Positions 14 through 57,850 of a stretch of DNA of 64,000 nt are shown here, in pieces. Position numbers and translations under genes: made by a program. The notes under the pieces are model-generated. The model searched no databases. It was not told where the DNA came from and was given only the letters and a program-made list of their open reading frames with translations. Every line of letters starts with the position of its first letter. The stretch's first letter is position 1. Source of the stretch: a bacterium (GTDB lineage: Bacteria; Patescibacteriota; Dojkabacteria; JAOAGR01; JBAXGO01); contig JBAXGO010000002.1 of assembly GCA_037139335.1 (NCBI GenBank), positions 851-64,850 of the forward strand, read 5' to 3'.

Positions 14-1006
14 ATGATAACACTAATCCACGGTTCTGATGTATATTTTTCATACCTTAAACTTAATAAGCTAAAACAAGAATATATTGACAAGGGTTAT
101 GAAGTGAAGATAATCAATGTTGATGATGAATTTGAAGTAAGTGATCCATCTAGCTTATTTGCAATATTATCAGAACAAGATTTATTCGCTACTAACAAAG
201 TACTTATTTTAAAAAGAATAGCATCTGCTGATTATTTTTATAAATTAGGAAAAGCATTAAAAGAGTCAACTAAACTTTTTGATGCTTTGAAATCAAGTCC
301 TCACGAAATCATTTTATGGGAAGACAAAATTATTACAACAGCCAATCCTCTTTCAAAATTATCTAAACATATAATACCATTCAATGCACCTTCAAAAGAT
401 TATGAAGTAATGGGTTATATTTTGAAAAATTTTCCAGACTTATCACAAGAAATAAAAACAATAATGTCAAAGTTTTCTAAAGCTATGTTTCCAAAAGATA
501 AGAAATTATTTTTTAATACATGGGAATTAGCCACTGAAATTGAAAAATTAAAGATTATGCCAAAACAATATATTAGCAACGATGTAATGGCTGTTCAACA
601 AAATCAATCTTTATGGATGCTTGGTGATTATATTACAGCATATTTATTAGATTCTAAAGATGATAATTTAAAGAAGTTATTTGCATTTATAGATAATTTG
701 GATGAGGAAGTTATTTTTAAATTAAACGCAATTCAGAATCATATTTCAGATATTATCGCTACGAAAAGATCTAAAAATGATAGTAGTGTAAAAGATGTAT
801 TTTTCAAACCAAACAGAAATTTTATATATTCTAATATTCTACGATACTGCGATAAAATTAATATGAATACATTATATGAACTTTATAAAAACAGCTTAAT
901 TGTTGAATATTATTTGAAAAACGGCTTAATCTCAGAGAAAGTAGCATTGATGAGTATATTCTTATACGATTCTAAATCAATGAGTTTGGAATTGCTCTCT
1001 GAGTAG
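14..1006 (+). CDS. holA: DNA polymerase III delta subunit (HolA)-like protein
   Basis: 330 aa. N-terminus MITLIHGSDxY...LF resembles the HolA clamp-loader delta N-terminal domain. Size and C-terminal helical region are consistent. Its 3-prime end overlaps the convergent VirB4-like gene. Confidence 0.45.
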   Translation: MITLIHGSDVYFSYLKLNKLKQEYIDKGYEVKIINVDDEFEVSDPSSLFAILSEQDLFATNKVLILKRIASADYFYKLGKALKESTKLFDALKSSPHEIILWEDKIITTANPLSKLSKHIIPFNAPSKDYEVMGYILKNFPDLSQEIKTIMSKFSKAMFPKDKKLFFNTWELATEIEKLKIMPKQYISNDVMAVQQNQSLWMLGDYITAYLLDSKDDNLKKLFAFIDNLDEEVIFKLNAIQNHISDIIATKRSKNDSSVKDVFFKPNRNFIYSNILRYCDKINMNTLYELYKNSLIVEYYLKNGLISEKVALMSIFLYDSKSMSLELLSE

Positions 1007-37441: not shown

Positions 37442-40126
37442 TCAATTCCATAAATTAATCATTTTTGCAGAATAGAAGGCTGTCGTAAACCAAGCCCAAT
37501 TTTGAGAATAATAGTCATTTTCATTACCCCAATATTTTTCATCAATTAAACTTGAAGCAAATCTATTTTCATAAATATTTCTAGCTATTTCTTTATTGTC
37601 AAAATATGTAGAAAATAATGCACCGCTCTCTGTACTCAAACTACTATAGTCAACATATTTATCTCCATTCAATTTATAAACAGCATATAGTTTTTTATCT
37701 TTTTCAATTGTGTTTTTATAAAAAGAAGAAATCTTTTGTAAATATATTTTTGCATTTGAGTTTTCATACCATTGCGCATCCCACGATAATCGTATGTTTA
37801 AGCGAAATGCGTCAAATCCATAAACATCACTTTTGTTATCATCAGCTTTTAAATAGTTTTCGTTAGTTGTGACGATAAACCAGTCTGGTAATAAATATGT
37901 ATTATTATCAAAAGTGTGTAAGGAAACTACTTTATTAATAATCGTATAAACGTCATCAGCAAGTTGATTCCATGGATGTTCTTTATCAATATTAGAAAAT
38001 ATTCTATATGATGCAGGTGAGAAATATGAAGGATTTATTAAATAATTTCCATTAATTTCTGAATTGGCTCTCGATGTCATGTAATACGTTCCATTAATTT
38101 GTACTGCTTCCTTAGTCCAAATGTCATTTATTATATTTTTCGCTAAGCTATAATACCTTTGATCTCCCCATTTTTTATATGCGAATAAAAGACTTAATGC
38201 TATGTCTTCATCAGAATCTGATGCTGATGAAGTATCAAGTATATTCAAATTTCCTAAATTATCAGTACCATAAACCCATGAAAATAAATTCTCCTCTTTT
38301 CTTTTTAAATTATTTAGAGACCATCGTAAAACCAAATCAAAATATTCTTTATCATTCATATAGACAGACCTTAATAGAGAATAGGCTTGCCCTTCTGATG
38401 TAGTTCTATTATTTTGCTCTGGATCTATTGTTCTGCCTTCAGACAAAATAAATTTTCCTTTATACCAATTCCATGTAGAGTTCAAAATATTGCTTTTATT
38501 ATTTACCGCCCTTATTTCTACAGGATAATCTTGACCTGATAAGTTATTTTCTTCAAATTTTTTTATAATTATTGAATTCTCATAAGCACTTTGTACAATT
38601 GGCATTTTTTCTTTCATTACAGTATCGTGAAATGCCGGTGTAACAATCAAATAGTCTATATTTTGCCAATCATTTTTCAATACTACATTTTTAATTTCGG
38701 GATCATTATCAACCTTCCAATAATATTGAGCTTTCACTTCCTGTATATCTTTTGTAGATTTATTGAGATCCAAAAATGCATAATTATCAATAACAATTAT
38801 TGATTTTTCATCTATATTATTTTTCACCCATTCTATCGCACTATTTTGATTATTTGTTTGTGCTAAAGTAAAAATATCTTTTGAGACTATCAATTCGAAA
38901 CAGAATACTGATAATAAAAAAGTTATAAATACAAATTTGAATATATAAGGAAAAAAAATTTTTTTATTTATAATAAATTTGATAAATTCAGAATAAAACA
39001 AACCAATATTTATAGCACTTAAAGGTATTATTGGTAACATATACCAATCTAATGTTTGTGCATAAAGTAAATATCCTATATATATTATTGAAAGAAAACT
39101 AAAGAATAATAAATATTTTTTTCTGAATATTATGTTTAATATTGTTATTACTGGTATTAAGATAATAAGATATGGATCAAATTTTAACCATGTATTCCAT
39201 AAAGATAATTCAAATGTACTATCTGTCGATAAGAAAAAGCTCCCATTCCTAGATGATTGAAAGGTAAAAGCTTCTAATAAACTTACATGAGGTGCATTAC
39301 CTCCAAAGATAGTTCCAGAAGGAAATAATTCACCACGTAAAAAAGCAAATACTGGATATAGTGATATTAGAAATAATGAAACTCCGCCCCAAATAAACGC
39401 ATTATATTTTTTATTTATTTTATCTGAATTAATTATGACAAAGATTAAAATTATAGGAAAAAATATTATTGCAGATTCTTTTGATAACACGGCAGCACCA
39501 AATAATATTGACGAATACGCCATATTTTTTATTGATGATTTATGAATCAAAAAATATAAGGATGCTATTAAAAAACAAACCATGATGTTATCAAGAAAAA
39601 CTCTTCTTTGTAGAATTATTCCAAGAGGTGATAATGTAAAAACAAGTGAAGCTAACACGGCGGCATCTAATCTTTTTGTAATTTTTTTTACAATTTTAAA
39701 AAGAAAATATATAGTTATAATGTGAAGAATTAGCATCAAGACCCGTCCAGAATTTATTGAAGTACCAAACGCATAAAAACTTCCTAAAATGATATTCCAA
39801 AATCCTATTACTAACCAACCAAAAGGTGAGTGATCATACCAATATGTATATGGTGCCAATTTACCATCGCTAACTACTGACCATGCTTGAGACATGTATG
39901 TTCCTTCATCTTCCCTATATGACGGATATCCAAACATATTTGCACCATGAACAATAACAGCAATTATTATTACGAAAATTAAAATAATTGAACTTTTATG
40001 TATATTTAAATATTTGAAAATGTTGGCTAATAAATCTTTTTTTTGTATGAAAGCTTTTGAAGATAATATAATTTTATTTACTCTTTGTAGAAGTAAATGA
40101 AATTTTTGTTTTAATAATTTATTCAT
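37442..40126 (-). CDS. Fusion protein: N-terminal GT-C-like polytopic membrane domain + C-terminal glycoside hydrolase family 8 domain
   Basis: 894 aa with ~12 TM in the first ~420 residues and an YREDEGTY acidic loop. The C-terminus carries a GH8 signature ASDSDEDIALSLLFAYKKW (compare A-[ST]-D-[AG]-D-xx-[IM]-A-x-[SA]-[LIVM]-[LIVMG]-x-A-xxx-[FW]) and TSEGQAY. Confidence 0.65.
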   Translation of the reverse strand: MNKLLKQKFHLLLQRVNKIILSSKAFIQKKDLLANIFKYLNIHKSSIILIFVIIIAVIVHGANMFGYPSYREDEGTYMSQAWSVVSDGKLAPYTYWYDHSPFGWLVIGFWNIILGSFYAFGTSINSGRVLMLILHIITIYFLFKIVKKITKRLDAAVLASLVFTLSPLGIILQRRVFLDNIMVCFLIASLYFLIHKSSIKNMAYSSILFGAAVLSKESAIIFFPIILIFVIINSDKINKKYNAFIWGGVSLFLISLYPVFAFLRGELFPSGTIFGGNAPHVSLLEAFTFQSSRNGSFFLSTDSTFELSLWNTWLKFDPYLIILIPVITILNIIFRKKYLLFFSFLSIIYIGYLLYAQTLDWYMLPIIPLSAINIGLFYSEFIKFIINKKIFFPYIFKFVFITFLLSVFCFELIVSKDIFTLAQTNNQNSAIEWVKNNIDEKSIIVIDNYAFLDLNKSTKDIQEVKAQYYWKVDNDPEIKNVVLKNDWQNIDYLIVTPAFHDTVMKEKMPIVQSAYENSIIIKKFEENNLSGQDYPVEIRAVNNKSNILNSTWNWYKGKFILSEGRTIDPEQNNRTTSEGQAYSLLRSVYMNDKEYFDLVLRWSLNNLKRKEENLFSWVYGTDNLGNLNILDTSSASDSDEDIALSLLFAYKKWGDQRYYSLAKNIINDIWTKEAVQINGTYYMTSRANSEINGNYLINPSYFSPASYRIFSNIDKEHPWNQLADDVYTIINKVVSLHTFDNNTYLLPDWFIVTTNENYLKADDNKSDVYGFDAFRLNIRLSWDAQWYENSNAKIYLQKISSFYKNTIEKDKKLYAVYKLNGDKYVDYSSLSTESGALFSTYFDNKEIARNIYENRFASSLIDEKYWGNENDYYSQNWAWFTTAFYSAKMINLWN

Positions 40127-40127
40127 A

Positions 40128-41522
40128 CTATTTTTGCAACTCAGATAAAGGTATATTCATCTCATCTATTTCGTGCTGTCTGTGTGCATTAGTATGTTTT
40201 GTTTTTTCCCAACTGTTATTTTTTTTCAAATTTCTAAATATAGCTCTCATAGCACAGTAACTCAAAATTACTTGATAAGGAAAAAAAGTTAAAACTATAT
40301 TGAGAGGAACAAATATCGAATACTTAATTTTATACTGAGTTGTAAATTCATAAAGTCCTATATTATAGATTGCAATTTGTATAATTAAAATATACAAAGG
40401 TAGGATGGAAATTAATGCGATTGTTAGCGGAATTTTGACCATTATTATCATAAAAATAGAAAAGGGAATATAAACTAAAAAGAGTGCTTGAGCACGAGAA
40501 ATAGTTAATATATACAGTGCTAATATTTTATGAGTAAAGCTTGGTAATTTTTTCCATTCTTTTTTGTTTAAAACTTGTATGAAACCCTGTATCCAGCGTG
40601 TCCTTTGTTTTATAAATTGTTGTAAATCTGGAGGAGTTTCTTCTCTGGTTGCATGTTCTTCATCATATATTACATTTATCTTAGCCCCAATTTGACTTAA
40701 TCTAATACCAATATCCGCATCTTCTGCAAGACATTTAGGATCCCAGCCTCCTACTTTTTTTAATGTTTCTCTTTTAAAAAAAATTGTATTTCCCCCTAGG
40801 GGTATGACACCTTGATTTGCAAAAAATGGTAGCGACGATTTAAACCAAAAATAATATTCCAATACATTGAATACAGAAAACCAATTTGATTTATAGTTCA
40901 TTAACTGAACACCCGACTGAACTACATCTGATTTTTTTTGAATCATAACTGTATTTATAATTTCATATAGCTTTTTGTGAGGTTCATCTTCAGCATCAAA
41001 AACAGCTATAACATCATTTTTCGCATATTGAAGCGCATAGTTGAGAGCATGTGGTTTATTAATAGGTGGTTCAGAATAAATATGAAGACTTATATTTCTT
41101 TTCCCAATTTCTTTTATAACATCATTCACTTTATGAATTGTTCCTTTATCATCATCGGAACAAATGACGATAATCTCTTTCATATGCTCGGGATATACCA
41201 TATTTGAGACTGCAAGAATTGTATCTCTGATTACTACTTCTTCATGTCTTACAGGAATTAAAGCTGTGAAAGTTAATAAAGGCGAAATAATTTTTTTGGG
41301 AGATTTAAATCGCTTCATTTTTTTTGGACTATCCCAAGCATAGAGCATTAAAAAAATAGCAAATATTCCTTGAACTGTTAACAATAATGATACAATTAAT
41401 ACACAAATAACCAGCAAAGAATTTAACCTATTTCCCAGATTCTTATAAAGTAAGAGAGAAGTTACGATAATTATAAAACTAATTATTAATGTTGAAATAA
41501 CTTTCTTAAATCTTTTATTCAT
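40128..41522 (-). CDS. Processive family-2 glycosyltransferase (cellulose/chitin/PNAG-synthase-like, QxxRW)
   Basis: 2 N-terminal TM, a GT-A domain with CSDDD, DAED, AEDAD and QRTRW motifs, then 3-4 C-terminal TM. Stop overlaps the start of the GH8 fusion gene. Confidence 0.75.
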   Translation of the reverse strand: MNKRFKKVISTLIISFIIIVTSLLLYKNLGNRLNSLLVICVLIVSLLLTVQGIFAIFLMLYAWDSPKKMKRFKSPKKIISPLLTFTALIPVRHEEVVIRDTILAVSNMVYPEHMKEIIVICSDDDKGTIHKVNDVIKEIGKRNISLHIYSEPPINKPHALNYALQYAKNDVIAVFDAEDEPHKKLYEIINTVMIQKKSDVVQSGVQLMNYKSNWFSVFNVLEYYFWFKSSLPFFANQGVIPLGGNTIFFKRETLKKVGGWDPKCLAEDADIGIRLSQIGAKINVIYDEEHATREETPPDLQQFIKQRTRWIQGFIQVLNKKEWKKLPSFTHKILALYILTISRAQALFLVYIPFSIFMIIMVKIPLTIALISILPLYILIIQIAIYNIGLYEFTTQYKIKYSIFVPLNIVLTFFPYQVILSYCAMRAIFRNLKKNNSWEKTKHTNAHRQHEIDEMNIPLSELQK

Positions 41523-44700: not shown

Positions 44701-45285
44701 ATGATAGTAGATCAAGAGGAATATACAAAAAAGACATTCTCAGAAGAAGATTTTGCTGAACAAGAAATAAGATCAATAACTTTTGAAGGATGTACATTCA
44801 AAAGCTGCAACTTCACAGATACAAATCTATCAGCAAGCAAATTTACTTCATGCTCTTTTAATAATTGCAACTTCAGTATGACGAGAATGGACAACGTCAG
44901 ATTCCAAAGAATTAAATTTGAAAAATGTAAAATACTTGGAGTAAACTTCTGTCTATGCGATACACATTTAGCTTTTACTGATTTAGAATTTTTGAAATGT
45001 AATATCAACATGTCATATTTTTCAGACATGGCATGCAAAGGATTCAAATTCAGCGAGAGTAATATACTTGACACAGATTTTACAAAATCCATATTAATAT
45101 CAGCAGATTTTACAGGATGTAATCTAAGTAAAAGTATATTCAAAGGATCAGATCTCAGCAAAGCCGATTTCACGAATGCAAAAAACTACTCAATAGATCC
45201 AACAATCAACAATATCAAAAAAACTAAATTCTCCATGCCGGAAGTAATGACACTAATTAACTTTTTCGATATTTTAATAGAGTAA
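44701..45285 (+). CDS. Pentapeptide-repeat protein
   Basis: Many consecutive A(D/N)LxX-type pentapeptides (CNFTDTNLSASKFTSCSFNNCNFSM...). Confidence 0.8.
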   Translation: MIVDQEEYTKKTFSEEDFAEQEIRSITFEGCTFKSCNFTDTNLSASKFTSCSFNNCNFSMTRMDNVRFQRIKFEKCKILGVNFCLCDTHLAFTDLEFLKCNINMSYFSDMACKGFKFSESNILDTDFTKSILISADFTGCNLSKSIFKGSDLSKADFTNAKNYSIDPTINNIKKTKFSMPEVMTLINFFDILIE

Positions 45286-46167: not shown

Positions 46168-47895
46168 ATGAATTATTATACATATACAATCAAGCTTATC
46201 TTTGGATATATAAGTAAATACCCATCTTTTTGGTTTTGGATATTTTGCAGAATTGTATATGTAGTTATGATAATTTCGGCTCCGGTATTATTAGGTACAA
46301 TTATAAATATTTTAGCAAATAATTCTAATTCAATAAGTGATCTACAATGGCCATTAATTGCATACATTATTTTAACAGTCTCTATCCCAATAATTGACAT
46401 TTATACAATTTTCAAAGGATGGGTAATAGGTTTCAAGATAGCTAATGATTTCAGACAAGATCTTGTACATAAATTAAGATTTGCTGGATTAGATTATTGG
46501 CAAGACCAAAAAAAAGGGAATGTATTACGAATAATTGATAAATCATACGAAAGTATGAGTCACATATGCGGTCTAATGATTCATGCATATCTGCCAATGG
46601 TAGGAAAATTAATTGGTATTCTAGTAGTTAGCGCATTTATTACTCCATTCACACTACTTATTTTTGCTTTAGATATTTTAATTTTTGCACTTAATTTAAT
46701 TTATCTATCAAAAAAACAAAGTAAGGCTGGTGTTATAGAAAATATTTCTCAAGAAAATGTGAACGGCAGTATCAATGAATATATTCAAAATTATAAAACA
46801 GTAGTTTATCTCAATATGTATGATAAACAAGAAACTGAGATTTTGAAAAAAAATAATATGTCATTTAAGAAATATTATATTAGAGAAAAATTATCAATGT
46901 GGAAATGGTTTAATAACAATATGATCCATAGCATAGCATTAGGAATAATTCTGATATATGGAATTACACAAGTATTTGATGGAAATTTAACCATAGGAGC
47001 TCTTACAACATTAATGCTTTTTAGTTCTTCATTTTCTGAAAGTTTAAGTAACATTGTGTGGAATTCTCAAGAATTTATTAAATATGTCAATTATATTCAA
47101 AGATATCATGAAGTATTTTCTAATATTAATAATAACAAAAGAATTACAAATGATAATGAAAAAATAATTTTTTTCCATTCATTAATTTCTAAAAATTTAT
47201 CTTATGAACGAAAGGGATATGACGCCCTCTCAAATATAGATTTCAATATTAAAAGTGGTGAGAAAGTAGCAATTGTTGGTTATACAGGCAGTGGTAAATC
47301 CACCATGTTGGATATTTTATTAAAAGTGATTACAAAATACAAAGGCGATATCTTCATTAATGACATAAATTATAATGATCTTGACGTAGATAATATTACT
47401 GGGATTTTTAGCATCGTTCCTCAAGATGTACAGTTATTCAGAGATAGTATAAAAAATAATATATTTATATCAGGTATAAATATTGAAGAAAACCATGATA
47501 ATTTAATTAAAATATCATGCCTAGAGCCATTAATAAAAAGATTAAAAAAGGGCATTGACAGTCGAATTACAGAAGGTTCAATAAATGTATCAGGTGGAGA
47601 AAGACAACGCATTGGTATAGCTAGGGCTTTGGCTCAAAATAGACCAGTCTTAATTCTAGATGAAGCTACAGCAAGCTTAGATCCTAAGACAGAAAGAGCG
47701 GTTATTACAAATATTATAGATTCTTATCCAAATATTACACTAATTTATGTCACACATAAATATTTTTTATTAAATTATTTTGATCATATTCTAGTACTAA
47801 ATGAAGGAAAAATAGTGGAGCAGGGGAGTTTCGAGGAATTAAAGCAAAGGGGTGGATTATTTTTAGATTTATACACAGCTAGTAAAACGGAATGA
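46168..47895 (+). CDS. ABC exporter, fused permease/ATPase (type I exporter half-transporter)
   Basis: 6 TM, then Walker A GYTGSGKST, signature SGGERQRIGIARAL and Walker B ILDEATASLD. Confidence 0.8.
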   Translation: MNYYTYTIKLIFGYISKYPSFWFWIFCRIVYVVMIISAPVLLGTIINILANNSNSISDLQWPLIAYIILTVSIPIIDIYTIFKGWVIGFKIANDFRQDLVHKLRFAGLDYWQDQKKGNVLRIIDKSYESMSHICGLMIHAYLPMVGKLIGILVVSAFITPFTLLIFALDILIFALNLIYLSKKQSKAGVIENISQENVNGSINEYIQNYKTVVYLNMYDKQETEILKKNNMSFKKYYIREKLSMWKWFNNNMIHSIALGIILIYGITQVFDGNLTIGALTTLMLFSSSFSESLSNIVWNSQEFIKYVNYIQRYHEVFSNINNNKRITNDNEKIIFFHSLISKNLSYERKGYDALSNIDFNIKSGEKVAIVGYTGSGKSTMLDILLKVITKYKGDIFINDINYNDLDVDNITGIFSIVPQDVQLFRDSIKNNIFISGINIEENHDNLIKISCLEPLIKRLKKGIDSRITEGSINVSGGERQRIGIARALAQNRPVLILDEATASLDPKTERAVITNIIDSYPNITLIYVTHKYFLLNYFDHILVLNEGKIVEQGSFEELKQRGGLFLDLYTASKTE

Positions 47896-48126: not shown

Positions 48127-49437
48127 TTATAAATATCTAGATATAACAGACTTATTACATTCTTTAATTTTAGTTATCGGACCAGAATACAAAATTTGTC
48201 CACCGTCATCACCACCGCCAGGTCCCATATCAATTATCCAATCAGCACTTTTAATAATATCTAAATTATGTTCAATTACTAATACGCTATTACCAGCATC
48301 AACTATTTTATTAATTAAATTAATTATTTTTTCAATATCATGGAAGTGCAATCCCCTAGACGGTTCATCAAGTATAAAAAAGTTACCTTTGCTGCCCAAC
48401 TTACCCGCAATTTTTAATCTCTGAGCTTCACCGCCGGATAATGTAGTTACTGACCTATTTAAAGTTAGATAACCAAGTCCAAGCTGAATTAAAACATTTG
48501 TACCTTCAATAATAAATGGAATAATTTCAACAGCAAGTTTATGATCAATTTTTTTTATCTCATTATTTAAATCTATTAAAGATAAATTAATATAATAATT
48601 AATATTTTTTCCATTTAACAAAGACTTCAAAACATTTTTATTCAATCTAGATCCATGACATTCATTACATGTAACTTCAATCCTGTATTTATTATTCAAA
48701 TCTTTATTCAAATTTCGCTCATCCTTGCAACGATCTTCTAATTGTCTAATAATTCCTTTGAATGAGAAGCTTTGAACATAACCTTCGCCAGAGGTTAATA
48801 CTTCTTTGGGAGAGTAGAGAAGATAATTTAATTCATCAGCAGACATGGCATTAATTTTTTTATCCATATCTACCTTTTTCGTAGCTTTAATAATATTCCA
48901 ATATCTGCTTCCAGGTTTAAAATTTCTATGCTTACACGCTCCTTCATTTAATGTTTTATCAAAGTCAAATAATAATTTAGGATCAATAACATAATCGATA
49001 CCTCTACCAATGCATTTTCGACACATCCCCTCAGGATTATTAAAAGAAAAATTTCCTGCATCAAATTTTTCACTACCACATCTTGAGAATAATAGCCTAA
49101 TATAGGTATAAATATCTGTATAAGTTCCAATTGTAGATCTAATATTACCATGAAGACTTTTTTGATCTATCAAAATAGTAGGTGATAATCCACTTATTTT
49201 ATCAACTATAGGTTTATCCGGCCTTCTAAGAAATTTTGAAGCGTAACTGCCAATTGACTCAATATATTCTCTTTGTGCTTCTTCATGCAAGATATCAAAT
49301 GCTATAGTAGATTTTCCAGATCCCGACACACCGATAAAAGTAACAATTTTATTAAAAGGTATTTCCAAATCTATATTTTTCAAATTATGCTCTCTTGCAC
49401 CTTTAATGCTAATATTCATATGTACTAATCTATTCAA
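48127..49437 (-). CDS. Stand-alone single-module UvrA-like ABC ATPase (half-UvrA)
   Basis: 436 aa. GAREHNLKNIDLEIP, GVSGSGKST, Zn-finger-like CRKC...CNECHG, LSGGEAQRLK, ILDEPSRGLHFHD and VIEHNLDIIKSADWIIDMGPGGGDDGG all match one UvrA ABC module, closest to the C-terminal half of UvrA. Confidence 0.7.
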   Translation of the reverse strand: MNRLVHMNISIKGAREHNLKNIDLEIPFNKIVTFIGVSGSGKSTIAFDILHEEAQREYIESIGSYASKFLRRPDKPIVDKISGLSPTILIDQKSLHGNIRSTIGTYTDIYTYIRLLFSRCGSEKFDAGNFSFNNPEGMCRKCIGRGIDYVIDPKLLFDFDKTLNEGACKHRNFKPGSRYWNIIKATKKVDMDKKINAMSADELNYLLYSPKEVLTSGEGYVQSFSFKGIIRQLEDRCKDERNLNKDLNNKYRIEVTCNECHGSRLNKNVLKSLLNGKNINYYINLSLIDLNNEIKKIDHKLAVEIIPFIIEGTNVLIQLGLGYLTLNRSVTTLSGGEAQRLKIAGKLGSKGNFFILDEPSRGLHFHDIEKIINLINKIVDAGNSVLVIEHNLDIIKSADWIIDMGPGGGDDGGQILYSGPITKIKECNKSVISRYL

Positions 49438-49468
49438 GATTTTAATCTATTACGCTGCGTCACAGTCA

Positions 49469-50281
49469 ATGAATAATTATTTAACAGCGGGAGAATTCGC
49501 AAAACTCGCAAGAACTACAAAAAGAACAATTTTATTTTACGATGAGAAAGACATTTTGAAACCTTTTCAAAAAACGTCAAATAAATATAGATTTTATAAA
49601 TCAGAACAAATCCTTGATTTTCAAATTATTTCATTAATGAGAAGGTTAGGATTATCATTAGAAGATATAAGTGGTTATTTGAAAGAAAATTACAGTCTTC
49701 ATGATATTTTTCAGATTAAAAAAAAATCTATTGAAGAAGAAATAAATTTTCTGAATAATTCATTAATTAATATCGATGAGTATAATAAGAATCTTGAAGA
49801 AACTGGTTTTATAATTAAGCCAGAGATCAAAACGATCAATCCTTATGAAATTTATTATATTGTAAGGAAAGGATCCTACGCTGGTATTAAAGATTTTTGT
49901 TTTGAATTAAAGAATTATTTTTCTAAAATTTCGTCGAATGCAACATTTCTAACAATTTTTATTGAGCATGGATACAATCCCAAAGATTCAGAAATGAAGA
50001 TTGGAGTTATTAAAAACGAAGTAATGGAATTAAATGATGAAGGATCAAAAAAAGTAAAAAGTGAAAAATTCCCTCTGCACCAAGCTTTAACATATACATA
50101 CAAAGGTTCAGGTAGTTTATTATCTATTCATTGGAAATATCTCGAAGAATATCAAGCTGAAAAAGGAATTAAGGATAATGTACTGATTAGTCCACGAGAA
50201 TTATACTTAACAACATCATTAAATGGAGAGAGGGATGAGAACAAGCACATATTCGAGATACAAATACCAGTCAATAATTAA
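49469..50281 (+). CDS. MerR-family regulator with C-terminal GyrI-like (effector-binding) domain
   Basis: N-terminal LTAGEFAKLARTTKRTILFYDEKDIL HTH. Start set at MNNYL. Divergent from the half-UvrA gene. Confidence 0.65.
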   Translation: MNNYLTAGEFAKLARTTKRTILFYDEKDILKPFQKTSNKYRFYKSEQILDFQIISLMRRLGLSLEDISGYLKENYSLHDIFQIKKKSIEEEINFLNNSLINIDEYNKNLEETGFIIKPEIKTINPYEIYYIVRKGSYAGIKDFCFELKNYFSKISSNATFLTIFIEHGYNPKDSEMKIGVIKNEVMELNDEGSKKVKSEKFPLHQALTYTYKGSGSLLSIHWKYLEEYQAEKGIKDNVLISPRELYLTTSLNGERDENKHIFEIQIPVNN

Positions 50282-50593: not shown

Positions 50594-52564
50594 ATGTCAG
50601 ATAACGTAGAAAAAGTTGTTTCCGACGAAAATATTATTGTGAATGATGTGAATGATATAGAGAAAGAGAACATTTCTAATCCGCCTAGCGAAAATATAAT
50701 TCCTCAATTTTCACCTGACGTATTGCCTAGTAATAAAGCACCTTTAACACCACATAAAAAAAATATACTAACATTATCCATAATTGGTGGAACATTAGTT
50801 GTTTTGGCATCTGTTGCAGTAATACTCGCTATATTAATGACTAACAAAACTGTAAAAAAAGAAGATGTGATAATTTCGCCAACTACCAGTGTATATAGCC
50901 CTTATACTGAAGTAGTGTTTCCAACAGATATTAAAGTTACAGAGACTATTACACCTTCAAATACTCCAATCCCAGAGTCACTAAATTTAGGCAGTGTACC
51001 TGTTAAATTATTGGATAAACCTATAAGACTTTATAATATTAATGCATTCAAATATGTAAGTTCTAACGATTATCAAGGACCTGGTATGGGATATCCACCA
51101 GCAAATGTAGATATTGACTCTATAAATGAATATTACAAAATTGGTACTATTACAGATGGTGGATACAAAGATTATAATTTAATTTATACTTTCTCAAATG
51201 GTAGTTTTGGAACATCAAGTTTTCCAACATTAGAATTTGTAATGTTATCAAAAGACAATAAATTTATTGTTGCTAACTACATGAATTATTCATATACAGA
51301 CTCTGATGGAAAAACGATATCAAATGATTATCAAATTTTAGCTCCAAATAATTTTGGAGATTCAACATCAGAAATTAAAGATACTGAAATTTATAAAACT
51401 TTAAATAAAAGTAATATCTCTGTAAAAAAAATAAATTTTACAAATGCAACTATTACATCAATATCGGATCCTAGTTATTTCAAAGAATCAATGAAATCAG
51501 ACAATGGTGTGCAAATATATGTATCGAGTTCTGATATAAAAAGTCCCATATATACAAAAACGAAAGAAGGATTCTTCATGATTAATGGCTTTGCTCCAAA
51601 TTTTTATAGTAGTTCGGAACCACCAAACATTTCATGGACATTAGGAAATACTGGTAAAAATAAATATCAATATGATTATATTTCAATTGGTTCTTGCGGT
51701 ATGGGAAGTAATGGTATGGGAAGTTATGGCGTAGAAATTACAGATCTTTCAATGGATTTATTAAAACAAACCGGTACAACATCAGATAATGATCCTGTTT
51801 ATGAATTCAAAGATCCAAATGCTGATACATACACGAAAAAAATATATGTTGAAGATTATCCCAATATAAATAAATACAATACAATAACAGAAGATGATGC
51901 CTCATTATTGCCTTATAATGATTTTGTAAAATATCATCCTGTATTTTATTGGAAAGATCCTTTTGGAAGATTAATTAAATTTGCCAGCCGTGAATTCATA
52001 ATGACTGGAGGTTGTGCTAAACCAGCGGTATATTTATACCCAACAAAAGATACGAAAGTTAATGTAAAATTATCGATTGATGGTGCATTAACATATTCTG
52101 AACCAAGATATGATCAAGGATGGAATGTATTAGCCAAACCAAACGGCGATTTAGTAATTAATGATAAAACATTTGATTATTTATTTTGGGAAGGTAAATT
52201 CAACACGAATTTTGAAAATTTAAATAATGGATGGGTTATTCTGAAATCTGATGTAAAAATATTCCTAGCACAGAAATTAGACGAATTGGGATTTAATGAG
52301 AAAGAAAAAGCTCAATTTCTAGAATATTGGATTCCTCGATTAGATAAAGAAAATAATAAATATATATATATAAATTTTGTTGATGAAAAATTCTTGGACA
52401 GATATGCTCCATTAACTATCACTCCAAAACCAGAAAATTATAAACGTTACTTCATGCTATATAGAGGTGAGGATAGTGAAAGAAAAACTACTGAGCCTGT
52501 ACTAAGTAAAGTAAATAGAAGTGGATTCTTCATGTTTGAATGGGGTGGAGCGAGAATTAATTAA
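50594..52564 (+). CDS. Large membrane-anchored extracytoplasmic protein
   Basis: 656 aa. N-terminal acidic segment, one TM, Tyr/Asn-rich extracellular region with a GMGSNGMGSYG duplication. Confidence 0.5.
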   Translation: MSDNVEKVVSDENIIVNDVNDIEKENISNPPSENIIPQFSPDVLPSNKAPLTPHKKNILTLSIIGGTLVVLASVAVILAILMTNKTVKKEDVIISPTTSVYSPYTEVVFPTDIKVTETITPSNTPIPESLNLGSVPVKLLDKPIRLYNINAFKYVSSNDYQGPGMGYPPANVDIDSINEYYKIGTITDGGYKDYNLIYTFSNGSFGTSSFPTLEFVMLSKDNKFIVANYMNYSYTDSDGKTISNDYQILAPNNFGDSTSEIKDTEIYKTLNKSNISVKKINFTNATITSISDPSYFKESMKSDNGVQIYVSSSDIKSPIYTKTKEGFFMINGFAPNFYSSSEPPNISWTLGNTGKNKYQYDYISIGSCGMGSNGMGSYGVEITDLSMDLLKQTGTTSDNDPVYEFKDPNADTYTKKIYVEDYPNINKYNTITEDDASLLPYNDFVKYHPVFYWKDPFGRLIKFASREFIMTGGCAKPAVYLYPTKDTKVNVKLSIDGALTYSEPRYDQGWNVLAKPNGDLVINDKTFDYLFWEGKFNTNFENLNNGWVILKSDVKIFLAQKLDELGFNEKEKAQFLEYWIPRLDKENNKYIYINFVDEKFLDRYAPLTITPKPENYKRYFMLYRGEDSERKTTEPVLSKVNRSGFFMFEWGGARIN

Positions 52565-53983: not shown

Positions 53984-54946
53984 ATGAAAGATGATGTTAC
54001 AAAATATTTAGAGTTATTAACCGATGATTTTGGAGTATGGCAACATGCGGATAAATACAATATTTTGAAAGAAGAAGGTTATGCACTGGATGATTCAGCT
54101 CGTGCTTTAATAGTATTTTTGTATTATAAAAAATTTGAAAAAGCATCAGTATGTTTAAAATATATTGAAAATTCAATCATAAATAATAGATTAGTTTTAT
54201 ATTTTAATAAAGAAAGAAAACCTATTTTAGAATCTACTTCTCTTGATGCCCAAGGATTAGCTTTGTGGGCATTAACTTTTTCGATGAGTTCAAATTTTGA
54301 AGTGGTAAAATGTTTATCTTTATATAATTTAATCAATAAAGATGTTTTGGACAATACAGAATATGTCAGGCCAATAGCTTATTATTTATTAAGTTCAATA
54401 TATTTAAATTCAAAAGATAAAGCGGATATTAGCTTAAATAAGTTAATAGAGAAATTTGATTTTAAAAACGGCTGGTTTGAAAATAAACTAATTTATGCGA
54501 ATGCCGTTATTCCATTTTCGTTGATTTCTTACTGTCATCATTTCAATATTCAAGATGAAAATTTATTTACAATAATTTTACAATCCATATCGATACTAGA
54601 AAAGAACATGAGAATTGGGATAATACCTGCACCTGTCGGCAATAGGATATGGCAAGATATTGGCTCTGTTACTAAAGATATCTATGGTCAACAACCTATA
54701 GATGTAGCATTTATGGTTTTGTTATTAGTAAAAGCTTATAAATTTTTTAACGATACTATTTTTTTAACAAAGGCTGAAGAGTGGATGAGCTGGTTTTATG
54801 GAAATAATATTTTACACGAATTAATAATCAGCTGTGACGGATCTTGTTATGATGGGATTGAAGAATTCGGTGTTAATACACATAAAGGTGCTGAATCAAC
54901 AATAATGTATCTATGGGCGAAATATTATTTTGATAATGCTTATTAA
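53984..54946 (+). CDS. Hypothetical protein, possibly alpha/alpha-toroid glycosidase-like
   Basis: 320 aa, follows the GT4 gene by 4 nt. Weak resemblance only. Confidence 0.3.
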   Translation: MKDDVTKYLELLTDDFGVWQHADKYNILKEEGYALDDSARALIVFLYYKKFEKASVCLKYIENSIINNRLVLYFNKERKPILESTSLDAQGLALWALTFSMSSNFEVVKCLSLYNLINKDVLDNTEYVRPIAYYLLSSIYLNSKDKADISLNKLIEKFDFKNGWFENKLIYANAVIPFSLISYCHHFNIQDENLFTIILQSISILEKNMRIGIIPAPVGNRIWQDIGSVTKDIYGQQPIDVAFMVLLLVKAYKFFNDTIFLTKAEEWMSWFYGNNILHELIISCDGSCYDGIEEFGVNTHKGAESTIMYLWAKYYFDNAY

Positions 54947-55763: not shown

Positions 55764-57395
55764 TTATTCCATTCCAGGAACTTCTTCTTTATGTATATTC
55801 TTGGTATTTGGTAGACTGAACGATACTGCCAAAGCCAATACAGACACGATAATTGCTACAACCTGTGCGCTTTTACCAGCATCAACAGTTGCTTGATTAC
55901 GTTCAAAAACAATGTCAGACGCAACATTTTCGGGCATATTTTTTGCCATTTGAGCTTGAAAGTATTGATATTTCGATGGATTTTTTTCTACATCTGCAGC
56001 ATATTCAGTTTTCTGCTCTGCACTTATTACACTACTATTATTAATTCCATTCATCATAGATGATGTAAATCCAGCAAGGAAAACCGCACCAATAATTGCA
56101 GAACCAAGACTGGCTCCTAACTGTCTAATTGTTGAATTCAAACCTGAAGCCTCACCTGCATATTTGATATCTACTGCTGAAAGTGTAATATTTGTAATTT
56201 GCGCTGATATAAGCCCAAATCCAATGCCAAACAATATTTGTCCAGGTGCAAACTGCAAAACATCGGAGTTAACATTAAGTCCTAAATATAATAAAAATGA
56301 ACCAATAATATTGAAGACCAATCCAATTTGAACAAGTACTCTTGGCTTAACCTTCTTACTCAATGCTCCTGATAATGGTGCAGCTATAAGTAAACTTAAC
56401 GACATAGGCAATAGAGATAGACCTGTCCCCAGAGCATCTTTACCTTTCACAGCTTGATAAAAAACAGGAATAGAAAAGATCAAACCCGCTTGTCCCAAAG
56501 CCATGATTGCAGTAGTAACAGAACCAGAAACAAACTGTTTATTTTGAAATATGTGCATTGAAATCAAAGGCTGTTGGCCATCATTTTCTCTTTTTCTTTC
56601 CCATAGTATAAATAAACCAATAATTATTAACCCAAAAATTATTGCGTAAGGTGTTATAGAAAGTCCCAATAAATCGTAACTATTGCCAAATATTTCATAC
56701 GGCATTTTGGCTTGTAACCAACCAAATGTTGATGACTCAATAATTCCATATACTAGAGTTGCCATTCCCACTGCAGATAATATTACACCTACAATATCTA
56801 GTTGTGGTTTATGATATTTATCTTTGACTTCTTTAATTAAAAAAGCTCCTGCAATCAATACTAATGTAACAATTACATTTATTCTAAATGCCCAATGCCA
56901 AGTATAATTTGTAGTTATAAGACCTCCCACAATTGGACCAAATGCTGCGGCAGCTCCTGCAATTCCACCCCAGACACCAAATGCAATTGCTCTCTCTCTG
57001 CCTTTAAAAGTAGAGACAAGCAATGAAGCTGTTGCAGGCATCATTAATGCAGCACCTGTGCCTTCAATCAAAGCCATACTTGTTATTAGCATCGTTGCAC
57101 TATTGCTTATTGAAACCATGAAAGAACCAAGTGCAAATATCACAGCACCTATTACGAACATTTTTTTCCTACCGAATAAATCTCCCAATCTACCGCCTGT
57201 TATTGTTAAAGCCGCCACTATTAATGAATATAATGTTGTTGCCCATTGTATGGTTTTGAGATCTGTATTTAGATCCTTAACAACATATGCCATAGAAACA
57301 TTAAGAATTGTACTATCTAAAATTATTATAAATAGTGCCAAACTCAACGTAACTAATACTCCCCATTTTTTTATCGGATTTACATGTACTTCCAT
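55764..57395 (-). CDS. MFS transporter, DHA2 (EmrB/QacA) drug:H+ antiporter family, 14 TM
   Basis: Motif GGRLGDLFGRKKMF and 14 hydrophobic segments are present. Confidence 0.8.
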   Translation of the reverse strand: MEVHVNPIKKWGVLVTLSLALFIIILDSTILNVSMAYVVKDLNTDLKTIQWATTLYSLIVAALTITGGRLGDLFGRKKMFVIGAVIFALGSFMVSISNSATMLITSMALIEGTGAALMMPATASLLVSTFKGRERAIAFGVWGGIAGAAAAFGPIVGGLITTNYTWHWAFRINVIVTLVLIAGAFLIKEVKDKYHKPQLDIVGVILSAVGMATLVYGIIESSTFGWLQAKMPYEIFGNSYDLLGLSITPYAIIFGLIIIGLFILWERKRENDGQQPLISMHIFQNKQFVSGSVTTAIMALGQAGLIFSIPVFYQAVKGKDALGTGLSLLPMSLSLLIAAPLSGALSKKVKPRVLVQIGLVFNIIGSFLLYLGLNVNSDVLQFAPGQILFGIGFGLISAQITNITLSAVDIKYAGEASGLNSTIRQLGASLGSAIIGAVFLAGFTSSMMNGINNSSVISAEQKTEYAADVEKNPSKYQYFQAQMAKNMPENVASDIVFERNQATVDAGKSAQVVAIIVSVLALAVSFSLPNTKNIHKEEVPGME

Positions 57396-57424
57396 AATTA
57401 TATTTCTTAAATATTTATTACAAA

Positions 57425-57850
57425 TTAAACTAACTTCTCAAATATCTTCAGCATTATTTCAATTTCATGATCTGAAATATTTATCATTTTTTTTGACACT
57501 AACTCAACATATTCTTTTTTAATTTCATTATTTTTTTTCTTTCCACTAACTGTTAGCTTTAGGAAAATAATTCTCCTATCCTGACTATTTTGTTCACGAA
57601 TGATATAACCTTCTATTACTAACGGATCTATTATTTGTGTTATTGCAGATAATGTATGTCCTGAATGTTTGGCTATCATTGAGGTCGTTACTTCTTCTCC
57701 AGAGTCTAATACAGAAAGAATTTTCATCTGTGCAGAAGTTATGTTATGTTTTTCTAAAAAAGAAACATTTCTGCGCCATACACAATTACTCATTTCAGTC
57801 ATTTGACGGAAAAGTTTATCTATATTTTTTCTTCTTTGAGATCTAGACAT
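57425..57850 (-). CDS. MarR-family transcriptional regulator
   Basis: wHTH region ITSAQMKILSVL...TTSMIAKHSGHTLSAITQIIDPLVIEGYIIR. Confidence 0.75.
   Translation of the reverse strand: MSRSQRRKNIDKLFRQMTEMSNCVWRRNVSFLEKHNITSAQMKILSVLDSGEEVTTSMIAKHSGHTLSAITQIIDPLVIEGYIIREQNSQDRRIIFLKLTVSGKKKNNEIKKEYVELVSKKMINISDHEIEIMLKIFEKLV

What the first reader, a model, noticed from the sequence alone, without database searches (positions are those of the whole stretch)
48127..50281. Stand-alone half-size UvrA-like ATPase divergent from a MerR/GyrI-like regulator
The 436-aa protein corresponds to a single UvrA ABC module, closest to UvrA's C-terminal half. It has the Zn-finger-like CxxC...CxxCH insert, LSGGEAQR and the terminal GPGGGDDGG motif. 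It has its own start codon, and no second module is anywhere nearby. Full-length UvrA paralogs such as DrrC, Ecm16 and class II UvrA2 confer resistance to DNA-binding antibiotics. They are often regulated by MerR/TipA-like drug-sensing regulators. Here a MerR with a GyrI-like ligand domain is divergently transcribed. A half-UvrA acting as a homodimer would be a minimal, apparently undescribed variant of that resistance or repair logic.
Basis: partly seen in the sequence, partly recalled or inferred. Interest (0 to 1): 0.55.

Follow-up and report, generated by a model that had tools for sequence, protein, structure and literature searches.

The report
Half-size UvrA made by internal deletion
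The half-size UvrA-like gene is real, but it is a one-off in-frame deletion that fused the front of module 1 to the back of module 2 of a normal two-module, UvrB-independent UvrA-like gene, and that gene type is paired in many candidate-phyla bacteria with a drug-sensor-type MerR regulator and a classic MerR promoter.

Summary
The ORF is real. Its likelier start is the ATG at 49419, giving 430 aa, and it appears in three assemblies. It is not "closest to UvrA's C-terminal half".

- **Residues 1-~323** are N-half type. They hold Walker A, signature domain I, the insertion domain and Zn module 2, with no UvrB-binding domain.
- **Residues ~339-430** are C-half type. They hold Walker B, the H-loop and the natural C-terminus.
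- **The switch** lies inside the ABC signature motif (VTTLSGGEAQRLKIA).

All 119 nearest homologues (45-53% identity) are 718-753 aa two-module proteins. In 33 full-length relatives the two signature sites lie about 310 codons apart and share 3-14 nt of in-register identity. The gene is therefore an in-frame internal-deletion hybrid and a singleton, not a family.

The MerR link holds. In 54 of 72 informative loci, homologues of the 270-aa EcmrR/BmrR-like regulator sit head-to-head with a two-module UvrA-like gene. All 37 distinct intergenic regions examined, and the window, carry TTGAC[T/A], a 19-nt spacer with a palindrome, and a -10 box. That is a MerR-type promoter facing the UvrA-like gene.

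Whether the hybrid works is unresolved. The deletion removed signature domain II, the main DNA-contacting part in UvrA. I lean towards an impaired, recent allele (about 60%) over a working homo-oligomer (about 30%).

The parts
48127..49419 (-). CDS of the 430-aa hybrid single-module UvrA-like ATPase. The start is ATG at 49417-49419 and the stop is TAA at 48127-48129.
   Evidence: ORF list. The identical 430-aa protein is P0001, NCBI WCJ19_00715, found in three assemblies. The stop codon was read directly. AF2 model has pLDDT 88.5.
48451..49419 (-). Residues 1-323, N-half (NBD-I) type. This part holds Walker A (49306-49332), signature domain I, the insertion (DNA-binding) domain, and the Zn module 2 cysteines (49012-49023 and 48658-48669). 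There is no UvrB-binding domain.
   Evidence: Aligns to T. maritima UvrA residues 4-117 and 264 onward, skipping 118-263. The N-half profile wins in every 15-residue window up to 330 except 301-315, which ties. At the diagnostic head positions, 9 are N-type, 2 are neither type and none is C-type. PF17755 UvrA_DNA-bind hit.
48406..48450 (-). Junction interval, residues 324-338 (VTTLSGGEAQRLKIA), which includes the ABC signature LSGGEAQR (48418-48441). The N-type to C-type switch lies here.
   Evidence: The upstream LNRS..TLS is N-diagnostic. The downstream A-G-KLGSKG lacks the N-type Arg and the 2-residue insert, so it is C-type.
48130..48405 (-). Residues 339-430, C-half (NBD-II) type tail. 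This part holds Walker B FFILDEP (48361-48381), the H-loop IEHN (48265-48276), GPGGGDDGG (48199-48225) and the natural C-terminus ..SRYL.
   Evidence: Residues 340-405 are 65.6% identical to C-half tails of 119 homologues and 41.7% identical to N-half tails. Profile bits for residues 346-405 are 126.8 (C) against 86.6 (N). The end coincides with the C-termini of full-length relatives.
49439..49469 (-). Predicted MerR-type promoter of the UvrA-like gene. The -35 is TTGACT (49464-49469, overlapping the merR ATG). The 19-nt spacer GTGACGCAGCGTAATAGAT (49445-49463) holds an imperfect palindrome GTGACGC-A-GCGTAAT. The -10 is TAAAAT (49439-49444).
   Evidence: All 37 distinct relatives share the same architecture, with consensus TTGACT ATaACGTaACGTtATActT TATtAT. 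Coordinates were checked. The site is unique in the window. It is a sequence prediction with no expression data.
49469..50281 (+). MerR-family regulator of 270 aa. It has an N-terminal MerR HTH and a C-terminal GyrI-like effector domain, of the EcmrR/BmrR type.
   Evidence: PF13411 scores 46 bits. PF06445 scores 23.4 bits, below the cut-off of 26 here, but 28 of 32 family members hit it. The family profile matches EcmrR 6xl5 over its full length (E = 1e-25) and BmrR.

Best explanation
The locus is a conserved two-gene module of Patescibacteria-like genomes.

**The module.** An EcmrR/BmrR-type MerR regulator (HTH plus GyrI-like ligand domain) sits head-to-head with a class-II-like UvrA paralogue. 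That paralogue normally has two ABC modules, is about 745 aa long and has no UvrB-binding domain. The regulator's palindromic operator lies in the 19-bp spacer of the UvrA-like gene's promoter. A ligand-bound regulator would therefore switch the gene on by the usual MerR DNA-untwisting mechanism. That step is inferred from promoter architecture and was not measured.

**The deletion.** In this genome the UvrA-like gene has lost about 310 codons. The deletion ran between the two homologous LSGGExQRxK-coding sites, which share short in-register nucleotide identity in relatives, so it is automatically in frame. The product is a Lepore-type hybrid. It joins the Walker A lobe, signature domain I, insertion domain and Zn module 2 of module 1 to the Walker B/H-loop lobe and C-terminus of module 2.

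**What was lost.** The Walker B lobe of module 1 is gone, including a loop that in canonical UvrA contributes to the dimer interface. So are Walker A of module 2, all of signature domain II and Zn module 3.

**Functional status.** I judge the hybrid to be most likely a recent, impaired or inactive allele that still sits behind an intact regulatory unit. If it is active at all, it must assemble head-to-tail as a homodimer or higher oligomer to rebuild composite ATP sites.
For: **Mosaic structure**
- The N-half profile wins for residues 1-330 and the C-half profile wins for 331-430.
- Tail residues 340-405 are 65.6% identical to C-half tails and 41.7% to N-half tails.
- The 2-residue indel and the motifs GLHFxDIEK, IEHNLD and DWIID are C-type.
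- The head has no C-type residue at any diagnostic position.

**Ancestral state**
- The 119 best hits are all 718-753 aa.
- The 33 complete MerR-linked genes are all 748-786 codons stop to stop.
- The distance between the two signature motifs is 309-311 codons (324 in one gene). In-register exact nucleotide runs are 3-14 nt, median 8.
- 430 + ~310 matches the family length.

**Not an artefact**
- The same gene appears in the NCBI MAG contig, an ENA k141 contig that differs by 2 SNPs elsewhere, and a Logan contig.

**Regulatory module**
- 54 of 72 informative MerR loci have a divergent UvrA-like gene directly upstream.
- None of 82 control UvrA loci has this MerR within 6 kb.
- The -35 / 19-nt palindromic spacer / -10 layout is present in 37 of 37 relatives and in the window.
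- The regulator profile matches EcmrR and BmrR.

**Reasons to expect impairment**
- Signature domain II makes the most extensive DNA contacts in UvrA.
- The UvrA dimer interface includes L507/M508/V510 of ATP-binding domain I (PMC12796330). In the hybrid that loop is replaced by the shorter C-type loop.
- Ecm16 needs ATPase activity and its full architecture (PMC10192343).
- Other loci show disrupted copies of this gene: L089, L093, L139 and L155.
Against: - All catalytic motifs and the four Zn module 2 cysteines are intact.
- The query keeps 47 of 49 head columns and 26 of 27 C-type tail columns that are at least 98% conserved. Its loss at 90%-conserved columns is within the range expected for so divergent a lineage (z = -1.4).
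- A 430-codon ORF stays open in a 29% GC genome.
- The promoter, operator and regulator are all intact.
- AlphaFold2 folds the hybrid confidently, with pLDDT 84-90 across the junction.
- None of these points separates 'recent' from 'selected'. The nearest relatives are only about 50% identical, so the deletion cannot be dated.
- The search for other half-size hybrids was not exhaustive.
Confidence: 0.6

Rival explanations
1. The deletion hybrid is a functional, selected minimal UvrA. Two hybrid modules pair head-to-tail to form two identical composite ATP sites, mimicking one UvrA protomer, and possibly a tetramer mimics the UvrA dimer. DNA is held by two insertion domains. The MerR sensor induces the protein, which clears DNA-bound drugs or marks lesions without UvrB.
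For: - The motifs, Zn module 2, ORF, promoter and regulator are intact.
- There is no clear excess of changes at conserved sites.
- The AF2 fold is confident and UvrA-like, with TMq 0.66-0.81.
- The allele is the consensus in two slightly different assemblies.
- The insertion domain, which Ecm16 needs for DNA binding and drug discrimination, is retained (PMC10192343).
- ABC modules generally work as head-to-tail dimers (established knowledge).
Against: - It is a singleton among all complete relatives seen.
- Being in frame follows from the deletion mechanism and is not evidence of selection.
- Signature domain II with the Zn module 3 hairpin and part of the ATP-binding-I dimer interface are lost.
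- The two lobes of the hybrid ATP-binding domain come from paralogous modules. Their matching segments are only about 41% identical to the query tail.
- No head-side compensation towards C-type residues was seen.
Confidence: 0.3
2. The half-size gene is an assembly or amplification artefact. The two internal repeats of a normal 745-aa gene were collapsed by the assembler or by chimeric reads.
For: The junction lies exactly at the one place where the two modules are most alike. All three assemblies may derive from the same or closely related read sets.
Against: - Three different assemblies give the same structure: the NCBI MAG, MEGAHIT k141 and Logan.
- In relatives the shared in-register identity is at most 14 nt. 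By my own knowledge of the assemblers, not a tool result, that is below the k-mer sizes they use.
- The Logan contig runs 6 kb straight through the junction.
Confidence: 0.04
3. It is a truncated pseudogene remnant of the genome's only canonical uvrA, or alternatively a relic of the ancestral single-module UvrA from before the internal duplication.
For: Half-size UvrA fragments do occur as remnants. L155 is a 3'-truncated N-half next to a contig end.
Against: - The protein has both the natural N-terminus and the natural C-terminus of the family.
- There are no leftover fragments in the flanks or elsewhere in the window.
- Its relatives are the class-II-like 745-aa family, not canonical 940-aa UvrA, and the UvrB-binding domain is absent.
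- A pre-duplication relic would be equidistant from both halves along its whole length. This protein is instead sharply N-type and then C-type.
Confidence: 0.02

Closest known systems
Class II UvrA / UvrA-like resistance proteins (D. radiodurans UvrA2, PDB 2VF7; Ecm16, PDB 7SH1; DrrC)
   Same: - The UvrB-binding domain and Zn module 1 are absent.
- The insertion domain and Zn module 2 are present.
- The ABC motifs are UvrA-type.
- Sequence matches reach E = 5e-117 (2vf7) and 8e-119 (7sh1). The predicted fold matches with TMq 0.66-0.75.
   Different: - Those proteins have two modules, signature domain II and Zn module 3. The window's protein has one hybrid module and lacks both.
- The parent ~745-aa Patescibacteria/DPANN family scores at least as well against canonical UvrA (E = 1e-142) as against UvrA2 or Ecm16. 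Its place among class II proteins rests on architecture, and I did not test descent.
- It is not inside a biosynthetic gene cluster.
Canonical UvrA (NER damage sensor; TIGR00630 / NF001503)
   Same: It gives the best overall sequence and fold matches. The same N-type/C-type distinctions (GLHxRD..VEHD against GLHFxD..IEHNLD) are visible in T. maritima UvrA.
   Different: There is no UvrB-binding domain. The protein is half size. It scores 429 and 388 bits against cut-offs of 1147 and 729.8.
EcmrR / BmrR multidrug-sensing MerR regulators and MerR-type promoters
   Same: - The regulator has an HTH plus a GyrI-like effector domain.
- The family profile matches EcmrR over its full length (E = 1e-25) and BmrR.
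- The target promoter has an over-long 19-bp spacer that holds a palindrome.
- The genes are arranged divergently with overlapping control regions.
   Different: - The known targets of EcmrR and BmrR are efflux pumps. Here the conserved target is a UvrA-like DNA-binding ATPase.
- The ligand is unknown.
- The window's GyrI-like match is just below Pfam's cut-off (23.4 against 26 bits).
Lepore-type fusion genes (deletion by recombination between tandem paralogous units)
   Same: The mechanism and outcome match. The head of unit 1 is joined in register to the tail of unit 2, and everything between them is lost.
   Different: Here the two units are the two ABC modules inside one gene. The shared nucleotide identity seen in relatives is only 3-14 nt, so slippage or illegitimate recombination is likelier than homologous crossing-over. 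That last step is my inference.

Membership tests
Canonical UvrA (excinuclease ABC subunit A) | Whole-protein score above the NCBIfam equivalog cut-offs | tested here: not met
   NF001503 scores 429 bits against a cut-off of 1147. TIGR00630 scores 388 bits against 729.8.
Canonical UvrA (excinuclease ABC subunit A) | UvrB-binding domain with Zn module 1 | tested here: not met
   The alignment to T. maritima UvrA skips residues 118-263. There is no PF17760 hit.
Canonical UvrA (excinuclease ABC subunit A) | Two tandem ABC modules (proximal and distal ATP sites) | tested here: not met
   There is one Walker A, one signature motif and one Walker B. No second module exists in the window.
Class II UvrA / UvrA-like (UvrA2, Ecm16, DrrC) | Lacks the UvrB-binding domain but keeps the insertion domain and Zn module 2 | tested here: met
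   C133/C136/C251/C254 are invariant in the family alignment. The definition is taken from PMC10192343.
Class II UvrA / UvrA-like (UvrA2, Ecm16, DrrC) | Two NBDs, with signature domain II and Zn module 3 | tested here: not met
   The segment equivalent to P0002 residues ~335-645 is absent. Only the parent family has it.
Class II UvrA / UvrA-like (UvrA2, Ecm16, DrrC) | ATP-dependent protection against DNA-binding drugs, independent of UvrB | not testable with these tools
   This needs expression and drug challenge.
ABC ATPase superfamily | Walker A, Q-loop region, LSGGQ-type signature, Walker B and H-loop in order | tested here: met
   GVSGSGKST (30-38), LIDQKS (83-88), LSGGEAQR (327-334), FFILDEP (347-353) and IEHN (382-385). 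PF00005 hit.
MerR family, EcmrR/BmrR-type (regulator at 49469-50281) | N-terminal MerR winged-helix HTH | tested here: met
   PF13411 scores 46.6 bits (cut-off 21.6) and PF00376 scores 35.5 bits (cut-off 28.2).
MerR family, EcmrR/BmrR-type (regulator at 49469-50281) | C-terminal GyrI-like effector-binding domain | tested here: inconclusive
   In the window's protein PF06445 scores 23.4 bits against a cut-off of 26, though the match covers 2-154 of 155 profile positions. Of 32 family members, 28 match at E <= 1e-3. The family profile matches EcmrR residues 3-265.
MerR family, EcmrR/BmrR-type (regulator at 49469-50281) | Target promoter with a 19-20-bp spacer that contains a dyad operator | tested here: met
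   The window has TTGACT-19 nt-TAAAAT, with 5 of 7 dyad pairs. All 37 relatives have a 19-nt spacer holding ATAACGT-N-ACGTTAT. Binding itself was not tested.

The most novel reading that the evidence does not exclude
A natural, functional single-module UvrA. In this reading, an in-frame fusion of the module-1 head to the module-2 tail homo-oligomerises to rebuild the ATP sandwich and still acts on DNA through its insertion domains. UvrA's ancient tandem duplication would then be reversible in nature. The hybrid would be the output of a previously undescribed drug-sensor (EcmrR/BmrR-like MerR) to UvrA-like regulon that is widespread in Patescibacteria.
Probability: 0.27. Interest if true: 0.7.

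Novelty: new variant of a known kind. Interest (0 to 1): 0.45.

Why it matters
There are two separate points.

**The hybrid.** It is a ready-made natural experiment on UvrA architecture. Does a single ABC module carrying only signature domain I and the insertion domain still dimerise, hydrolyse ATP and recognise DNA? The answer bears on how the tandem UvrA arose from a single module, and on what signature domain II and Zn module 3 contribute. If the hybrid is dead, it is simply an example of how internal repeats cause in-frame gene collapse in streamlined genomes.

**The module.** This point is more robust. The analysis uncovered a conserved module in which a multidrug-sensor-type MerR regulator and a textbook 19-bp-spacer promoter drive a UvrB-independent UvrA paralogue. 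I found no report of such a pairing in the papers I could search. The cellular role of class II UvrA proteins outside antibiotic producers is poorly understood. A ligand-gated promoter gives a direct experimental handle: find the inducer, and you find what the ATPase defends against.

Tried and rejected
- **Exhaustive representative search with the hybrid.** The top 150 hits are 749-2343 aa, all but one of them multi-module UvrA fusions of 1265 aa or more, because scores add up over modules. The search was useless for finding other half-size proteins.
- **Genome-contig scan.** It did not recover the window's own genome, so I could not name the organism or look for its canonical uvrA. The set did serve as a control for MerR adjacency, which was 0 of 82.
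- **Generic promoter/terminator scan.** It found nothing above chance. It allows only 16-18-nt spacers, so it missed the 19-nt MerR-type promoter that the comparison of relatives revealed.
- **Inverted-repeat search in the intergenic region.** It reported only a direct repeat (TAATCTATT, two copies). The window's dyad is too imperfect for the seed.
- **Rfam scan of the window.** No hits.
- **Test for head-side compensation towards C-type residues.** None was found.
- **Test for relaxed constraint.** Retention at conserved sites is slightly low but within the range for divergent family members, so the test is not decisive.
- **Neighbourhood enrichment around 17 distinct MerR/UvrA-like pairs.** No conserved third gene emerged. 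Alpha/beta hydrolases appeared 4 times and NUDIX 3 times. A larger 'resistance island' is therefore not supported.
- **MerR linkage of the closest full-length hits.** P0002, P0009 and P0027 (about 52% identity) are not MerR-linked. The MerR-linked copies are 46-48% identical. I did not resolve which sub-group the ancestor belonged to. Synteny and the shared operator favour the MerR-linked one.
- **Literature searches** for half-size or truncated UvrA, and for MerR or GyrI-like together with UvrA. Nothing relevant turned up.
Full report
**Observation**

The minus-strand ORF at 48127..49437 exists and ends in TAA. Gene callers in two other assemblies and the NCBI record start it at the ATG at 49419, which gives 430 aa. 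That start also fits the promoter described below, because the upstream TTG lies one base after the -10 box. Residue numbers below use the 430-aa form.

The protein matches solved UvrA structures at E = 1e-142. It matches the NCBIfam UvrA models strongly, but at about a third to half of their cut-off scores. It has one Walker A, one signature motif, one Walker B, one H-loop and the GPGGGDDGG motif. It also has two CxxC pairs.

The divergent plus-strand gene really starts at 49469 and encodes 270 aa. It is a MerR-HTH protein with a GyrI-like C-terminal domain. No ORF elsewhere in the 64-kb window is UvrA-like.

**What the protein is**

The alignment to T. maritima UvrA runs from residues 4-117 straight to 264-570. 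The UvrB-binding domain and Zn module 1 are therefore absent, as in class II UvrA proteins, and most of the protein is module 1, not module 2.

The 119 best database hits are 45-53% identical. Every one is a 718-753-aa two-module protein from Patescibacteria, Gracilibacteria or DPANN archaea. The only 430-aa entry is the query itself.

Pairwise comparison with the best hit showed the key point. The query aligns end to end with that protein's N-half. However, its last ~100 residues are much closer to the protein's C-terminal tail, and they lack the 2-residue insert of the N-type loop.

I built separate profiles of the N-halves and C-halves of the 119 homologues and scored the query in 15-residue windows.
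- The N profile wins in nearly every window up to residue 330.
- The C profile wins in nearly every window from 331 on. For residues 346-405 the scores are 126.8 against 86.6 bits.
- Residues 340-405 are 65.6% identical to C-tails and 41.7% identical to N-tails.
- At the head positions where the two half types differ and both are conserved, the query is N-type at 9, neither type at 2, and C-type at none.
- N-diagnostic residues (LNRS..TLS) reach residue 328 and C-diagnostic features begin by 339. The switch therefore lies within VTTLSGGEAQRLKIA, the ABC signature motif itself.

The protein also ends where full-length relatives end (..S.TG.YL). This mosaic excludes a plain truncation. It also excludes a pre-duplication relic.

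**How it arose**

In 33 distinct full-length relatives the two SGGE.QR motifs are 309-311 codons apart, with one at 324. The DNA around them shares in-register exact runs of 3-14 nt, with a median of 8. A deletion between these two sites is necessarily in frame. It would turn a ~740-aa protein into a ~430-aa one, which is what is seen. I infer slippage or short-homology recombination. The event itself cannot be observed.

An assembly collapse is unlikely for two reasons.
- An ENA MEGAHIT contig (2 SNPs away, both in the neighbouring ABC exporter gene) and a Logan contig (identical) carry the same gene.
- The shared identity seen in relatives is short. By my own knowledge of the assemblers, not a tool result, it is well below the k-mers they use.

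**The regulator link**

The MerR protein belongs to a small family of 89 hits, which are named Patescibacteria wherever a name is given.
- Three of four contexts looked up had a 743-754-aa UvrA-like gene directly divergent. The fourth had a 775-aa one two genes away.
- A metagenome scan with the family alignment returned 80 loci. Of the 72 with usable upstream sequence, 54 have a divergent UvrA-like gene immediately upstream and 3 have one nearby.
- All 33 complete copies are 748-786 codons stop to stop.
- As a control, none of 82 other UvrA loci, mostly canonical, has this MerR within 6 kb.
- The three closest full-length hits that I checked are not MerR-linked.
- Beyond the pair, neighbours are not conserved.

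**The promoter**

I aligned 37 distinct intergenic regions and found a shared element. Read in the direction of the UvrA-like gene, it has three parts: a -35 box TTGAC[T/A], then exactly 19 nt holding the dyad ATAACGT-N-ACGTTAT, then a -10 box, most often TATTAT.

The window has TTGACT, then GTGACGCAGCGTAATAGAT (19 nt), then TAAAAT at 49469-49439, followed 19 nt later by the ATG. The dyad centre has changed on both arms (ACGT.ACGT to ACGC.GCGT). The site is unique in the window.

A 19-bp spacer holding the operator is the hallmark of MerR-type activation. That is established knowledge for MerR, BmrR, CueR and EcmrR. The regulator profile matches EcmrR over its full length (E = 1e-25) and BmrR, and 28 of 32 family members hit the GyrI-like model. 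The regulatory reading is a strong sequence inference. No binding or expression data exist.

**How it probably works**

For the parent module I propose the following sequence.
1. A small-molecule ligand binds the GyrI-like domain.
2. The MerR dimer on the spacer realigns the -35 and -10 boxes.
3. The UvrB-independent UvrA-like ATPase is produced.
4. The ATPase acts on DNA carrying bound drug or bulky damage, by analogy with Ecm16 and DrrC.

Those two proteins lack the UvrB-binding domain, need ATPase activity, and use the insertion domain to bind and discriminate drug-loaded DNA (PMC10192343; PMC10413001).

For the hybrid, the retained parts are Walker A, signature domain I, the insertion domain, Zn module 2 and a C-type Walker B/H-loop lobe. 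The lost parts are signature domain II with the Zn module 3 hairpin, one whole ATP site type, and the N-type loop after the signature motif. In C. thermocellum UvrA, signature domain II makes the most extensive DNA contacts. [quoted passage not shown]

AlphaFold2 gives a confident single-module model (pLDDT 88.5). It superposes on half of UvrA, UvrA2 and Ecm16. Such a model does not test hybrid stability or oligomerisation.

Conserved-site retention is high, at 47 of 49 and 26 of 27 columns that are at least 98% conserved. It is only slightly below expectation for so divergent a lineage (z = -1.4). Because the nearest relatives are about 50% identical, I cannot tell a recent neutral deletion from a selected one.

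Several relatives show disrupted copies (L089, L093, L139, L155), which suggests the gene is often dispensable. On balance I put about 60% on an impaired, recent allele behind an intact switch. I put about 30% on a working homo-oligomeric minimal UvrA and a few percent on an artefact.

**Comparison and novelty**

The parent gene fits the architectural definition of class II UvrA. The hybrid fails the two-module, signature II and Zn module 3 features, so it is not a member in the full sense. It fails both canonical UvrA cut-offs.

The regulator fits the EcmrR/BmrR type, though its own GyrI-like score is just under Pfam's threshold. I found no paper in the held library describing a half-size UvrA or a MerR-UvrA-like pairing. 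That library is incomplete, so this is absence of evidence only.

I rate the hybrid a new variant of a known kind, with moderate interest. The conserved MerR-type regulon is the more solid and more generally useful result.

**Limits**

- The organism is labelled only 'bacterium'. A Patescibacteria origin is inferred from best hits.
- The rest of the genome could not be searched for canonical uvrA.
- The hunt for other hybrids was limited to the best 120 hits and to the MerR-linked loci.

Noticed in passing
window 44701-45285 (+), 46168-47895 (+), 55764-57850 (-): Several drug-tolerance-type genes lie near the locus. They are a pentapeptide-repeat protein (Pfam 93 bits), an ABC exporter with fused membrane and ATPase domains that is convergent with the hybrid gene, and a MarR-MFS transporter pair. 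Neighbourhoods of related MerR/UvrA-like pairs are not conserved, so this may be coincidence.
   Followed up: partly
L089, L093, L139, L155 (loci): Some MerR-linked UvrA-like genes look disrupted. L089 and L093 are split into two frames. L139 stops after 139 aa. L155 is an N-half cut at about residue 403, 77 bp from a contig end, with another ORF between it and merR. These may reflect recurrent decay of this gene or sequencing errors.
   Followed up: partly
L114, L129, L143, L149, L151, L158: In relatives with 41-45-nt intergenic regions, the -10 box of the UvrA-like promoter ends only 6-8 nt before the ATG. These mRNAs would be leaderless. In the same loci merR has a TGn-extended -10 (TGTGCTATAAT or TGTGATATAAT) in place of a -35 box.
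   Followed up: no
window 49426-49434 and 49443-49451: There is a perfect 9-nt direct repeat, TAATCTATT, in two copies 17 nt apart in the 49-nt intergenic region. The second copy overlaps the -10 box and the spacer of the predicted promoter. I could not find a convincing -35 box for merR itself in the window.
   Followed up: no
proteins P0210-P0359: The public protein set holds many 1265-2343-aa proteins with 6-11 UvrA-like stretches. These are fusions of UvrA modules well beyond the normal two-module size. They outrank all two-module proteins in summed score.
   Followed up: no
window 37442-40126 (-) and 40128-41522 (-): An 894-aa protein combines a PMT_2-type membrane glycosyltransferase region with a glycosyl hydrolase family 8 domain. 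It lies directly downstream of a family 2 glycosyltransferase, a layout that resembles a polysaccharide synthase operon.
   Followed up: no
window 972-3329 (-): A 785-aa protein has a TraG-type P-loop domain, which is a component of type IV secretion or conjugation. It hints at a mobile element or DNA-uptake system at the start of the window.
   Followed up: no
window 50594-52564 (+) and 53984-54946 (+): Two sizeable ORFs of 656 aa and 320 aa have no Pfam match. The first lies just downstream of merR, and the 320-aa ORF follows a group 1 glycosyltransferase gene.
   Followed up: no
window 47168 and 47175: The only two differences between the window and the ENA contig over 14.3 kb fall 7 nt apart inside the ABC exporter gene.
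   Followed up: no
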